IMG/VR virus record: IMGVR_UViG_3300038393_000804
Coordinates: 83,598-147,597 of that record
DNA: 64,000 nt
Strand: one strand, 5' to 3'
Source: a virus
Taxonomy: Duplodnaviria; Heunggongvirae; Uroviricota; Caudoviricetes
The notes beneath the pieces are model-generated. The model searched no databases. It saw nothing but the letters and a program-made list of their open reading frames with translations, and was not told the DNA's origin. The number at the start of each line of letters is the position of its first letter. The stretch's first letter is position 1. Shown here piece after piece: positions 57,318 to 58,397 of this stretch. The position numbers and the translations under genes are program-made.

Positions 57318-58397
57318 ATGTCTAATCAAACAAGAGTAGTGGTTTATGGTTCAAATCGTCTTAACGTGGAGGATTCTTCTTTAACACCTGCAGAAATTCA
57401 AGCGTCAATGTCTGAAATTTTTCCTGAGTTAAAGAATGCAACTTACGAAGTCGTTGGAAACGAAATCCGCTTCACAGTTAAAGCTGGGACGAAGGGTGCT
57501 ACCCGCGTTGTGGTATACGGTTCCAACCGCTTAAACGTTGAGGATGATTCTTTAAGCCCAGAGGAAATCAAAGCTTCTATGTCTGAGATTTTCCCTGAGC
57601 TTAAGAACGCTACTTTCGAAGTCGTAGGCAATGAGATTCGTTTCACTGTCAAAGCAGGCACAAAGGGTTCTGGTTCAGGCCAGACCCGCGTGGTTGTTTA
57701 CGGCTCCAATCGTTTGAATGTTGAAGATTCTTCTTTAACACCAGCGGAGATTCAAGCTTCTATGAGCGAGATTTTCCCAGAGCTTAAAAATGCTACGTAT
57801 GAAGTAGTAGGAAACGAAATCCGATTCACAGTAAAGGCAGGTACAAAAGGTATGACAAGAGTTGTTGTGTATGGTTCAAACCGTCTGAATGTAGAGGACT
57901 CATCTTTGACTCCAGCAGAAATCCAGGCATCTATGTCTGAGATTTTTCCAGAGTTGAAGAATGCTACCTACGAGGTAGTTGGAAATGAAATTCGATTCAC
58001 AGTGAAAGCGGGGACGAAAGGTATGGCACGCGTAGTTGTTTATGGTTCTAATCGTTTAAATGTTGAGGATGATTCCTTAAAACCAGAAGAGATTCAGGCT
58101 TCCATGTCTGAAATCTTTCCTGAGTTGAAAAACGCAACGTTTGAAGTTGTTGGGGATGAAATCCGATTCACTGTTAAGGCTGGTACGAAAGGTGCGAGAG
58201 TCGTTGTATACGGCTCTAACCGCCTTAACGTGGAAGACGACAGCTTAAAGCCTGAAGAAATCCAGGCATCCATGAGCGAAATCTTCCCTGAACTGAAGAA
58301 TGCAACATTCGAAGTGGTTGGCGACGAGATTCGTTTCACCGTGAAAGCTGGTACGAAAGGTGCCCGTTTCACAAAGCTAGTGATTAAATTAGCTTAA
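57318..58397 (+). CDS. poly-ubiquitin-like protein with six tandem 56-61-aa repeats (predicted beta-grasp/Ubl fold, each ending ...KAGTKG) plus an 11-aa C-terminal cap (ARFTKLVIKLA)
   Basis: Repeats read from the translation; CTATGGAGGAATG RBS. Operon partners are a JAMM peptidase and an E1-like enzyme. Confidence 0.7.
   Translation: MSNQTRVVVYGSNRLNVEDSSLTPAEIQASMSEIFPELKNATYEVVGNEIRFTVKAGTKGATRVVVYGSNRLNVEDDSLSPEEIKASMSEIFPELKNATFEVVGNEIRFTVKAGTKGSGSGQTRVVVYGSNRLNVEDSSLTPAEIQASMSEIFPELKNATYEVVGNEIRFTVKAGTKGMTRVVVYGSNRLNVEDSSLTPAEIQASMSEIFPELKNATYEVVGNEIRFTVKAGTKGMARVVVYGSNRLNVEDDSLKPEEIQASMSEIFPELKNATFEVVGDEIRFTVKAGTKGARVVVYGSNRLNVEDDSLKPEEIQASMSEIFPELKNATFEVVGDEIRFTVKAGTKGARFTKLVIKLA
57333..58364 (+). 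repeat. in-frame tandem repeat of 6 units of about 171 nt (one is 183 nt) within the poly-Ubl gene. Strong synonymous divergence between units
   Basis: Protein repeats are nearly identical while codon usage differs between copies. Confidence 0.8.

What the first reader, a model, noticed from the sequence alone, without database searches (positions are those of the whole stretch)
57333..58364. Poly-Ubl gene is organised like a eukaryotic polyubiquitin precursor, with heavy synonymous divergence between repeats
Six head-to-tail 56-61-aa units each end in ...KAGTKG and are joined by 0-5-residue linkers (A, SGSGQ, M, M, none). The final unit is followed by an 11-aa cap (ARFTKLVIKLA). This parallels UBI4-type polyubiquitin, which has head-to-tail repeats and a C-terminal cap residue removed by a DUB. 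The amino-acid repeats are about 90-100% identical, but the DNA copies differ at many synonymous positions. This indicates purifying selection on every unit and pressure against recombinational collapse. The adjacent JAMM peptidase is the natural candidate processing enzyme that would expose the C-terminal Gly.
Basis: seen in the sequence. Interest (0 to 1): 0.85.

Follow-up and report, generated by a model that had tools for sequence, protein, structure and literature searches.

The report
Phage polyubiquitin-like precursor gene
A large Bacillus-type phage carries a gene of six head-to-tail copies of a small ubiquitin-like protein at the head of an operon that also encodes E1-like, E2-like and JAMM-peptidase enzymes. 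This is a viral counterpart of the eukaryotic polyubiquitin precursor, and its copies stay identical as proteins while their DNA is as different as the genetic code allows.

Summary
ORF 57318-58397 (+) encodes six 55-aa Prok_Ub/PRTRC_C-type beta-grasp units. Each ends in KAGTKG, the linkers are 1-6 residues, and an 11-aa cap follows the last unit. Units are 91-100% identical as protein but only 70-82% as DNA. Synonymous sites are fully randomised (0.589 of same-amino-acid codons differ; 0.591 expected from random codon choice) and pN is at most 0.085.

The gene heads a conserved six-gene cassette: poly-Ubl, a small protein, a large protein, a Prok-E2_D-like protein, a JAMM peptidase and a ThiF-type E1. 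The order matches annotated PRTRC cassettes. The JAMM gene lies three genes downstream, not adjacent.

The cassette recurs in three Bacillus jumbo phages and many metagenomic contigs, with 1-9 units. All 62 multi-unit proteins carry a cap. A relative with the same cassette has a single 56-aa gene ending exactly at ...KG, so the unit is the functional module.

Purifying selection alone does not explain the pattern. Amino-acid changes spread across units without DNA homogenisation, which is concerted evolution at the protein level. Synonymous divergence is not greater than random. Cleavage, conjugation and targets are inferred only. I rate it a new variant of a known kind.

The parts
57211..57250 (+). 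Hairpin followed by a U-run upstream of the poly-Ubl gene; probable terminator of the preceding small ORF
   Evidence: Read from the sequence. RNA fold gives -19 kcal/mol, z = -2.15. The evidence is weak.
57304..57308 (+). Shine-Dalgarno GGAGG, 9 nt before the ATG
   Evidence: Read directly from the sequence.
57318..58397 (+). Poly-Ubl gene: 359 aa, six Prok_Ub/PRTRC_C-type beta-grasp units plus a cap
   Evidence: ORF. Pfam PF14454 matches six stretches, E = 6e-30. NCBIfam PRTRC_C scores 54.7 bits. The AF2 model gives beta-beta-alpha-alpha-beta-beta in each unit. Best Foldseek matches are linear tetra-ubiquitin, E = 5e-7, from a low-confidence model.
57333..57497 (+). Unit 1 (type A, ends KAGTKG)
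57504..57668 (+). Unit 2 (mixed type), followed by the long SGSGQT linker
   Evidence: The long linker at this position is conserved in six-unit relatives.
57687..57851 (+). Unit 3 (type A)
57858..58022 (+). Unit 4 (type A)
58029..58193 (+). Unit 5 (type B)
58197..58361 (+). Unit 6 (type B)
58362..58394 (+). C-terminal cap ARFTKLVIKLA. The pattern ARF..[LV][VI][IV] is conserved in the close clade.
58414..58459 (+). Strong hairpin plus U-run directly after the poly-Ubl stop codon. Probable terminator or attenuator that would set a high Ubl-to-enzyme ratio.
   Evidence: RNA fold -27.6 kcal/mol, z = -5.9, 0 of 200 shuffles fold as well.
58458..59009 (+). Small cassette protein. Orthologues are 127-140 aa with an invariant C-terminal D[FY]I. 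The window ORF has an N-terminal extension and its true start may lie further downstream.
   Evidence: Conserved position.
59015..60718 (+). Large cassette protein (567 aa) with a central Glu/Arg-rich coiled-coil-like region. It sits where PRTRC protein F sits. No family match.
   Evidence: Position compared. No significant similarity to Dina PRTRC_F.
60731..61489 (+). E2-like protein (Prok-E2_D family) with invariant Cys151 (LCWG) and near-invariant His207
   Evidence: Orthologue L004 scores 27.5 bits against PF14460 (cut-off 25); KLEB27-3 scores 21 bits. hhalign to the Prok-E2_D protein of L011 gives probability 98.4%, E = 8e-15. Invariant residues. AF2 pLDDT 88, but no significant PDB fold match.
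61532..62818 (+). JAMM/JAB metallopeptidase (428 aa) with an N-terminal extra domain and a low-complexity C-terminal region. Motif residues: E103, H172-x-H174-x7-S182-x2-D185.
   Evidence: Pfam Prok-JAB 25.3 bits. NCBIfam PRTRC_A 38.5 bits, below cut-off. Motif invariant in 4 phages.
62889..63806 (+). ThiF-type E1-like adenylyltransferase (305 aa) with a GxGGxGG nucleotide loop, invariant R75 and D134, and invariant Cys211 (SCAER)
   Evidence: Pfam ThiF E = 2.4e-11. NCBIfam PRTRC_ThiF 126.8 bits, cut-off 144.75. Alignment.
63791..63818 (+). Terminator-like hairpin plus T-run at the end of the E1 gene; end of the cassette

Best explanation
The gene is a precursor for a phage ubiquitin-like modifier. 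It is translated as six fused copies of a roughly 56-aa beta-grasp protein. I infer that the cassette's JAMM peptidase cuts after each ...TKG and removes the 11-aa cap. That would release several near-identical monomers with a free C-terminal Gly from each translation event. The ThiF-type E1 would adenylate that Gly, possibly forming a thioester on Cys211. The Prok-E2_D-like protein (Cys151) would then pass the Ubl on to target proteins that are still unknown, from phage or host. The tandem arrangement and the hairpin after the gene would give far more modifier than enzyme.

Shown here:
- the repeat architecture;
- the family identities of the Ubl, JAB, E1 and E2-like proteins;
- conservation of the cassette;
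- strong constraint on every unit;
- protein-level concerted evolution with randomised synonymous sites.

Inferred only: the cleavage sites, the processing enzyme, conjugation itself and the targets.
For: 1. Six Prok_Ub units. Every unit read in the 62 multi-unit homologues and 3 isolate phages ends in AG[TV]KG, while linkers and caps vary freely.
2. No multi-unit member ends at the Gly.
3. A relative (L011) has a single 56-aa gene ending ...KAGVKG-stop in the same gene order: Ubl, small protein, mid-size protein, Prok-E2_D, Prok-JAB, ThiF. One unit therefore equals one functional Ubl.
4. Many linkers are M or MA, so linker plus unit reproduces the product of a monomer gene.
5. The JAB has a complete, invariant JAMM motif. 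The E1 has its nucleotide loop and an invariant Cys. The E2-like protein has an invariant Cys and belongs to Prok-E2_D.
6. The six-gene order is kept in WH1, Edson, KLEB27-3, L004 and L009. It matches the C-F-B-A-ThiF order of the annotated PRTRC cassette of Ralstonia phage Dina. The Dina Ubl also ends ...GRKG before an extension.
7. pN is at most 0.085 with saturated pS. Paralogous units are 94% identical against 83% for orthologous units. The same replacement recurs in 4 units (P about 1e-4 each under a uniform model). This is as expected if all units feed one pool that must fit the same enzymes.
8. A hairpin with a U-run follows the gene directly.
9. Precedent: JAB-type peptidases mature Ubl precursors in an archaeal Ub operon (PMC6043591, abstract seen) and in Bub operons (PMC11601596, section title seen).
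Against: There is no biochemical evidence of any kind, and no target is known.

The NCBIfam PRTRC_A and PRTRC_ThiF scores are below their cut-offs and PRTRC_B gives no hit.

Bacterial multi-beta-grasp Ubls exist in type 6e/Bub-type operons (PMC1779556; PMC11601596), and from memory they are not cut between domains.

WH1 gp211 is annotated 'virion structural protein'. The basis of that label is unknown, and it could mean the uncut chain is a virion component.

A family variant (P0118) has units ending AQNKS, with no Gly.

The conserved ARF..LVI cap suggests the tail has a role beyond blocking the terminus.
Confidence: 0.55

Rival explanations
1. The chain is conjugated whole. Only the cap is removed, and the entire six-unit chain is activated at the last Gly and attached as a ready-made linear poly-Ubl chain. 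Alternatively it is trimmed only partly, giving a ladder of products.
For: Linkers are very short (1-6 aa). The best fold matches are linear tetra-ubiquitin. The cap is conserved within the clade, so the C-terminal end is the specially handled site.
Against: Internal units keep AG[TV]KG invariantly in every multi-unit protein read, which would not be needed if only the last Gly were used. Monomer genes occur in the same cassette. Copy number varies from 1 to 9 even among close relatives, which is hard to reconcile with a chain of defined length.
Confidence: 0.17
2. The protein is an uncleaved multi-domain structural or scaffold protein, for example a virion-associated string of beta-grasp beads. 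The neighbouring E1 and JAB would act on something else.
For: WH1 gp211 is annotated 'virion structural protein'. Multi-beta-grasp bacterial Ubls are known (PMC1779556; PDB 9cd2 appears among the matches).
Against: The basis of the annotation could not be traced. This reading does not explain the strict co-occurrence and order with E1, E2-like and JAB genes, the invariant Gly at each unit end, the variable caps, or the protein-level homogenisation of units.
Confidence: 0.13
3. The Ubl is a sulfur carrier like ThiS or MoaD. The E1 would thiocarboxylate the C-terminal Gly for a phage-specific thio-modification, with no protein conjugation.
For: The E1 also matches the ThiF and MoeB adenylyltransferase models. 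Conserved Gly at the C-terminal end of the beta-grasp domain is shared with ThiS/MoaD (PMC1779556).
Against: The cassette contains no rhodanese domain, cysteine desulfurase or thiazole/molybdopterin synthase. An E2-like protein with an invariant Cys is present. Iyer et al. note that the E1s of these operon types never carry a rhodanese domain (PMC1779556).
Confidence: 0.05
4. The pattern of identical protein and scrambled DNA is just old duplication plus very strong purifying selection, as I recall has been argued for eukaryotic polyubiquitin. No concerted evolution and no selection on the DNA would be involved.
For: dN/dS is far below 1. Synonymous divergence equals, and does not exceed, the random expectation.
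Against: The Ubl is not slowly evolving. It is about 50% identical between phages, like the E1. Paralogous units are 94% identical and orthologous units 83%, although the six-unit layout with its linker marker is shared. Since the WH1/Edson split and the window/L006 split, the same position changed in four units, using different codons (TCG, TCT, TCA to GCG, GCT; Ser encoded as AGC, AGT, TCG, TCT).
Confidence: 0.1

Closest known systems
Eukaryotic polyubiquitin genes (yeast UBI4, human UBB/UBC)
   Same: Both have head-to-tail beta-grasp modifier units with a Gly at each unit end. Both have a C-terminal cap that must be removed; here it is a single Asn in 10 of 62 relatives, and from memory UBI4 also ends in an extra Asn. 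In both, copy number varies and the repeats are identical or near-identical as protein with heavily diverged synonymous sites. My comparison with Sharp and Li 1987 and Nei et al. 2000 is from memory, not checked here.
   Different: The family is different: Prok_Ub PF14454, not ubiquitin PF00240. Units are 55 aa, have four strands and end in KG rather than GG. Short linkers lie between units, whereas from memory polyubiquitin has none. The predicted protease is a JAMM enzyme encoded in the same operon. The protein sequence itself evolves fast between lineages, so uniformity within a genome needs concerted evolution and not only constraint. The gene is carried by a bacteriophage.
PRTRC system / operon type 6d of Iyer, Burroughs and Aravind 2006 (PMC1779556)
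   Same: Both have a small Ubl with a conserved C-terminal Gly, a JAB with an N-terminal extra domain, an E1 without a rhodanese domain, and an E2-like protein with a conserved Cys and a downstream His (for the paper; here). The best NCBIfam matches are PRTRC_C, PRTRC_A and PRTRC_ThiF. The gene order matches the annotated PRTRC cassette of Ralstonia phage Dina.
   Different: The Ubl is a 3-9-unit polyprotein, not a single domain. PRTRC_A and PRTRC_ThiF score below their cut-offs, and PRTRC_B, E and F give no match. No ParB-related gene was found in the cassette. The host element is a jumbo lytic-type phage, not an ICE or plasmid. No experimental study of PRTRC was found in the library.
Bub (type 6e) and Bil bacterial ubiquitination-like defence operons
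   Same: Both combine an E1, an E2 and a peptidase with beta-grasp Ubls. The precursor is matured by the operon's own peptidase. Proteins with 1-3 beta-grasp domains were noted in type 6e as 'reminiscent of poly-ubiquitin' (PMC1779556; PMC11601596).
   Different: From memory, in Bub/6e the several beta-grasp domains are dissimilar and work as one protein. Here the units are near-identical and each carries its own C-terminal Gly. Bub E1 and E2 lack catalytic Cys and use oxyesters, whereas here invariant Cys residues are present. PADLOC models give no match apart from weak E1 similarity. Here the system is encoded by the phage, not by the host.
Caldiarchaeum-type archaeal ubiquitin operon with Rpn11 processing
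   Same: A JAMM peptidase encoded beside the Ubl removes a C-terminal extension to expose Gly (PMC6043591, abstract).
   Different: That system has a single Ub with a short extension, a true ubiquitin-family sequence, a RING E3 and a link to the proteasome.

Membership tests
Prok_Ub (PF14454) / PRTRC_C ubiquitin-like beta-grasp | Sequence match to the family model | tested here: met
   PF14454: E = 5.9e-30, 103 bits against a cut-off of 25, six separate stretches. TIGR03738: 54.7 bits against a cut-off of 45.95, but that score is summed over the repeats.
Prok_Ub (PF14454) / PRTRC_C ubiquitin-like beta-grasp | Beta-grasp fold | tested here: inconclusive
   The AF2 model has mean pLDDT 59.8. Each unit is beta-beta-alpha-alpha-beta-beta with a flexible tail. 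Top Foldseek matches are linear tetra-ubiquitin (E = 5e-7), but POTRA arrays score similarly and TM-scores are low.
Prok_Ub (PF14454) / PRTRC_C ubiquitin-like beta-grasp | Conserved Gly at the C-terminal end of the domain | tested here: met
   Every unit in the window, in 3 isolate phages and in 62 homologues ends AG[TV]KG. The exception is the distant variant P0118, whose units end AQNKS.
PRTRC system (NCBIfam TIGR03734-03741) / operon type 6d | ThiF-family E1 of the PRTRC type | tested here: inconclusive
   TIGR03736 is by far the best hit (126.8 bits, E = 8e-37) but lies below the curated cut-off of 144.75.
PRTRC system (NCBIfam TIGR03734-03741) / operon type 6d | PRTRC protein A (JAB peptidase) | tested here: inconclusive
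   TIGR03735 scores 38.5 bits against a cut-off of 101.8, over the C-terminal 54 residues of the model only. Pfam Prok-JAB scores 25.3 against 25. The JAMM motif is complete.
PRTRC system (NCBIfam TIGR03734-03741) / operon type 6d | PRTRC protein B (E2-like) with a conserved Cys and a downstream His | tested here: inconclusive
   There is no NCBIfam hit. hhalign to Dina PRTRC_B gives E = 0.23, although the Cys and the HLL motif align. Membership of Prok-E2_D is supported through orthologues. C151 is invariant and H207 nearly so.
PRTRC system (NCBIfam TIGR03734-03741) / operon type 6d | ParB-related protein and PRTRC proteins D, E and F | tested here: not met
   None of the cassette proteins hit these models. 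The 567-aa protein shows no significant similarity to Dina PRTRC_F. Only the gene order corresponds.
E2/UBC superfamily | UBC fold with the catalytic Cys in the loop after the four-strand meander | tested here: inconclusive
JAMM/MPN+ metallopeptidases | E ... H-x-H-x7-S-x2-D zinc site | tested here: met
   E103, H172, H174, S182 and D185 are invariant in four phages.
Eukaryotic polyubiquitin (ubiquitin family PF00240) | Units belong to the ubiquitin sequence family and end in RGG | tested here: not met
   PF00240 is not among the 25 best-scoring Pfam families shown of 30. Units end TKG. The resemblance is in gene architecture, not family membership.
Eukaryotic polyubiquitin (ubiquitin family PF00240) | Precursor is cleaved into monomers that are then conjugated | not testable with these tools
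   This needs protease and conjugation assays.
Known anti-phage Ubl systems (CBASS type II, Bil, Bub, 6A-MBL) | Match to the system's protein models | tested here: not met
   PADLOC gives only weak E1 similarity to the Cap2 E1-E2 model (25 bits) and nothing for the JAB or E2-like proteins. NCBIfam 6A-MBL cap2_3 scores 21 bits against a cut-off of 320.

The most novel reading that the evidence does not exclude
This would be the first polyubiquitin-type precursor found outside eukaryotes and their viruses. A jumbo-phage family (1-9 units) would mass-produce a Ubl for its own E1-E2-JAMM conjugation system, to modify host or virion proteins during infection. The repeats show that proteins can evolve in concert without homogenising their DNA. 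That implies simultaneous selection for identical monomers and against, or at least without, long identical DNA tracts.
Probability: 0.45. Interest if true: 0.85.

Novelty: new variant of a known kind. Interest (0 to 1): 0.72.

Why it matters
Bacterial ubiquitination-like pathways (CBASS type II, Bil, Bub) have so far been studied as host defences. The PRTRC/6d branch has no experimental study in the searched library.

This cassette sits on the phage side of the conflict. It offers a tractable entry point, because three isolates (WH1, Edson and KLEB27-3) carry it.

If the precursor is processed, the polyubiquitin solution arose independently in a virus of bacteria: many modifiers per translation event, a blocked C-terminus, and a dedicated protease.

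The evolutionary pattern is a clean natural case for separating protein-level concerted evolution from gene conversion. The copies are identical as protein, their codons are randomised, and replacements spread from unit to unit using different codons. The pattern also bears on how repeats survive in highly recombinogenic phage genomes.

The TKG end predicts a mono-Gly remnant on target lysines after trypsin digestion. That makes a search for targets directly feasible.

Tried and rejected
- Megablast of 57000-64000 against phages: no match.
- The search for related loci in viral contigs, with the 252-aa protein and with its alignment: no relatives.
- Literature searches for vB_BceM_WH1, KLEB27-3, PRTRC plus ubiquitin, and phage poly-Ubl found no description of this gene and no source for the WH1 'virion structural protein' label.
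- Sequence searches of solved structures with the Ubl and JAB profiles: nothing.
- hhalign of the E2-like profile against Dina PRTRC_B, and BLASTP of the 567-aa protein against Dina PRTRC_F: not significant.
- PADLOC: no defence-system membership. Rfam: nothing in the window.
- Hypothesis that synonymous divergence exceeds random (active avoidance of DNA identity): rejected for the window (0.589 against 0.591-0.600; longest identical run 17 nt against 21 expected). It is not consistent across six genomes: WH1 z = +2.9, L009 z = -6.7, the others within about 1.5 SD (Edson +1.5).
- Many Pfam, PHROG, NCBIfam and PADLOC hits of the poly-Ubl that list '0 stretches' are repeat-inflated artefacts and were ignored.
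- P0134 (1067 aa) in the exhaustive search is an unrelated repeat protein.
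Full report
**1. The observation**

The ORF at window 57318-58397 (+ strand, 359 aa) has a GGAGG Shine-Dalgarno sequence 9 nt upstream of its ATG. It contains six 55-aa cores, RVVVYG...KAGTKG. They lie at nt 57333-57497, 57504-57668, 57687-57851, 57858-58022, 58029-58193 and 58197-58361. The linkers are AT, SGSGQT, MT, MA and A, and the tail is the 11-aa sequence ARFTKLVIKLA.

Units 1, 3 and 4 are identical as protein, as are units 5 and 6. 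Unit 2 differs from the others at 3-5 positions. At the DNA level the units are only 69.7-82.4% identical. Of 594 pairwise differences, 481 fall at third codon positions. Nei-Gojobori pS is 0.68-1.05 (saturated) and pN is 0-0.085. Where dS can be computed, dN/dS is 0-0.04. Tandem Repeats Finder sees only three copies at 76% match.

**2. What the units are**

Pfam Prok_Ub (PF14454) matches six separate stretches (E = 6e-30). NCBIfam gives PRTRC_C.

An AlphaFold2 model of the whole protein has low overall confidence (pLDDT 59.8), as expected for beads on a string with a shallow alignment. Each unit still has the same order of elements: beta-beta-alpha-short alpha-beta-beta. The KAGTKG tails and linkers score below 50. 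The best Foldseek matches in the PDB are linear tetra-ubiquitin chains (E about 5e-7). POTRA arrays follow closely and TM-scores are low, so this is supportive only. No solved structure is detectable by sequence.

**3. The surroundings**

The JAMM gene is not adjacent. The order of genes is:

| Coordinates | Product |
|---|---|
| 57318-58397 | poly-Ubl |
| 58458-59009 | small protein |
| 59015-60718 | 567-aa protein with a Glu/Arg-rich middle |
| 60731-61489 | 252-aa protein |
| 61532-62818 | JAB peptidase |
| 62889-63806 | ThiF-type E1 |

- **JAB.** It has Pfam Prok-JAB and a complete E103...H172-x-H174-x7-S182-x2-D185 motif, invariant in four phages.
- **E1.** It is best matched by PRTRC_ThiF (126.8 bits, below the cut-off of 144.75). 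It has the GxGGxGG loop, R75, D134 and an invariant Cys211.
- **252-aa protein.** It has no direct Pfam hit. Its orthologue on a 246.7-kb contig passes Prok-E2_D (27.5 bits against a cut-off of 25), and the KLEB27-3 orthologue scores 21 bits. Its profile aligns with probability 98.4% (E = 8e-15) to a protein with an E <= 1e-5 (unmarked) precomputed Prok-E2_D hit, with the Cys aligned. Cys151 is invariant and His207 nearly so in 24 sequences.
- **Transcription signals.** A strong hairpin with a U-run (-27.6 kcal/mol, z = -5.9) follows the poly-Ubl stop codon. A terminator-like site closes the E1 gene at 63791-63818.

**4. Relatives**

The same six-gene cassette is present in three Bacillus jumbo phages: vB_BceM_WH1 (5 units), Edson (5 units) and KLEB27-3 (4 units, each ending AGVKG). 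It is also on metagenomic contigs of 205-247 kb.

A search of 5.8 billion proteins found 63 homologue clusters. Of these, 62 are multi-unit:

| Units | 3 | 4 | 5 | 6 | 7 | 8 | 9 |
|---|---|---|---|---|---|---|---|
| Clusters | 2 | 26 | 16 | 11 | 5 | 1 | 1 |

Every unit ends in AG[TV]KG. Every protein has a cap after the last Gly: N in 10, E, I, F, KLAK, ARF..LVI-type, up to 29 aa.

An exhaustive phmmer search with one unit against 1.84 billion representatives found 63 proteins with 1-7 matched stretches, including many two-unit forms and some monomers.

One monomer, P0136, is 56 aa and ends KAGVKG followed directly by a stop codon. It sits in the same cassette: Ubl, 86 aa, 348 aa, Prok-E2_D, Prok-JAB, 118 aa, ThiF. 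This is the strongest evidence here that one unit is the functional module and that the polyprotein is a precursor form.

The gene order also equals C-F-B-A-ThiF in the annotated PRTRC cassette of Ralstonia phage Dina. The Dina Ubl ends ...AVGRKG before a 63-aa extension.

**5. Evolution of the repeats**

The fraction of same-amino-acid codons that differ between window units is 0.589. Random codon draws under the window's own codon usage give 0.591 +/- 0.021. The copies therefore keep no DNA similarity beyond what the protein forces. They are also not more different than random. The same test on six genomes gives no consistent excess: WH1 z = +2.9, L009 z = -6.7, the rest within about 1.5 SD (Edson +1.5).

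Purifying selection alone does not explain the pattern, for three reasons.

- **The Ubl is not slow-evolving.** It is about 50% identical between the window and WH1, like the E1 at 52%.
- **Paralogues are closer than orthologues.** Window and L004 share the six-unit layout, including the long linker after unit 2. Their orthologous units are 83% identical, while paralogous units within each genome are 94% identical. Synonymous sites are saturated in both comparisons.
- **Close pairs show replacements spreading across units.**
  - In close pairs the DNA still shows positional orthology. WH1 against Edson is 86-92% on the diagonal and 66-82% off it. Window against L006 is 85-94% and 69-82%.
  - WH1 and Edson differ by Ser/Ala at unit position 27 in all four internal units (TCG/GCG, TCT/GCT, TCA/GCT, TCA/GCT), and by Leu to Val or Thr in all four linkers.
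  - Window and L006 differ at unit position 20 in four units (A, E, A, A against S, S, S, S). The Ser is encoded AGC, AGT, TCG and TCT.
  - Unit 2 of L006 has become identical in protein to units 1, 3 and 4 through five replacements, without becoming more similar in DNA.
  - Four hits at one position have P about 1e-4 under a uniform model in each pair. Site-rate heterogeneity was not modelled.
  - One 29-nt identical run between Edson units 3 and 4 at the changed site suggests an occasional micro-conversion.

The units thus evolve in concert as proteins. The likely routes are short conversion tracts, parallel selected mutations, or both. Long DNA identity is never restored.

**6. Mechanism proposed**

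The steps below are inferred except where marked.

1. The gene is transcribed from its own signals, with attenuation before the enzyme genes. The hairpin is shown; its function is inferred.
2. The polyprotein is cut by the JAMM peptidase after each TKG and the cap is removed.
3. The monomers are adenylated by the E1 and passed through Cys211 and Cys151 to targets.

Support comes from four observations:
- the invariant Gly at every unit end beside free variation in linkers and caps;
- the universal caps;
- the monomer gene in a homologous cassette;
- linkers of M or MA, which make each released unit look like the product of a monomer gene.

There is also precedent for JAB-type maturation of Ubl precursors in archaeal and Bub systems (PMC6043591, PMC11601596).

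Rivals are conjugation of the whole chain, an uncleaved structural protein (WH1 gp211 is labelled 'virion structural protein', basis untraceable), and a sulfur-carrier role. Targets and biological role are unknown.

**7. Comparison with what is known**

In gene architecture this works like eukaryotic polyubiquitin, but it is not a member of the ubiquitin sequence family.

By homology it belongs to the PRTRC / type 6d branch of prokaryotic Ubl systems described by Iyer, Burroughs and Aravind 2006 (PMC1779556). It fails or only approaches the NCBIfam cut-offs for the A and ThiF proteins, gives no hit for protein B, and no ParB-related, D, E or F component was found. That paper noted two to three tandem Ubl domains 'reminiscent of poly-ubiquitin' in some of these systems; its operon-by-operon description places the one-to-three-repeat proteins in type 6e, not in this type.

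No paper in the searched library describes a phage poly-Ubl or any experiment on PRTRC. PADLOC finds no known defence system.

I rate it a new variant of a known kind.

**8. Verdict**

Interest is high for specialists in bacterial and phage ubiquitin-like systems and in repeat evolution. It is tempered by the complete absence of biochemical evidence and of a known target.

Noticed in passing
window 55002-56789 (+): A 595-aa protein upstream of the cassette. It has an acidic stretch, a coiled-coil-like middle and a C-terminal Gly/Met-rich region that repeats a motif like FNP(x)(L/M)LLA(L/M)xDG three to four times. Its homologue WH1 gp208 is annotated 'virion structural protein', and there is weak similarity to Bacillus phage G gp39. 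It is not consistently linked to the cassette: it is absent upstream in KLEB27-3 and L009.
   Followed up: partly
protein P0118 (metagenomic, 289 aa): A distant family member with five near-identical units that end in AQNKS, not AGTKG. There is no C-terminal Gly at any unit end. This may be a variant with different chemistry or a different cleavage site.
   Followed up: no
window 58458-59009 (+): The small cassette protein has an invariant C-terminal D[FY]I in five phages. In the window only, it has an N-terminal extension of about 45 aa with Cys residues (C-x19-C-x2-C) and a weak RYYR-CCHC hit (E = 0.008). The annotated ATG overlaps the U-run of the preceding hairpin, so the real start may be further downstream.
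   Followed up: partly
window 49735-51264 (+) and 53057-53836 (+): The phage carries a nicotinamide phosphoribosyltransferase-like gene; its L004 orthologue has NAMPT_N and NAPRTase domains. It also carries a nucleotidyltransferase / tRNA-nucleotidyltransferase-like gene (PHROG 1614 and 2244). Both lie just upstream of the cassette, and this synteny is kept in L004.
   Followed up: no
L011 6041-7965 and 12272-13999: The cassette with the monomeric Ubl is flanked by an AAA+ ATPase plus a VWA_CoxE protein on one side and an SNF2/ResIII helicase on the other. The nature of this 26.7-kb element (phage, plasmid or island) was not determined.
   Followed up: no
proteins P0063 and P0141: Two proteins have a single N-terminal Ubl-like domain without the AGTKG end, fused to a C-terminal region of about 150-180 aa that they share (…GGYEHLVGKK.KLI…). 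This looks like a Ubl-fusion offshoot of the family.
   Followed up: no
L001 15056-15529 (WH1 gp217) and L009 1693-2319: NADAR-family genes lie near the cassette in WH1 and in L009. Together with the NAMPT-like gene in the window, this hints at a neighbourhood related to NAD or ADP-ribose metabolism.
   Followed up: no
window 58362-58394 and homologues: The cap is not random. In the close clade it keeps the pattern ARF-x-x-[LV]-[VI]-[IV]-x-[LF]-[AG] and begins like a unit (AR...). It could be a remnant of the first strand of a seventh unit or a functional beta-strand. Other clades have AISSLA.F.AA.KF.G-type or YTVIV...ITIR-type caps.
   Followed up: partly
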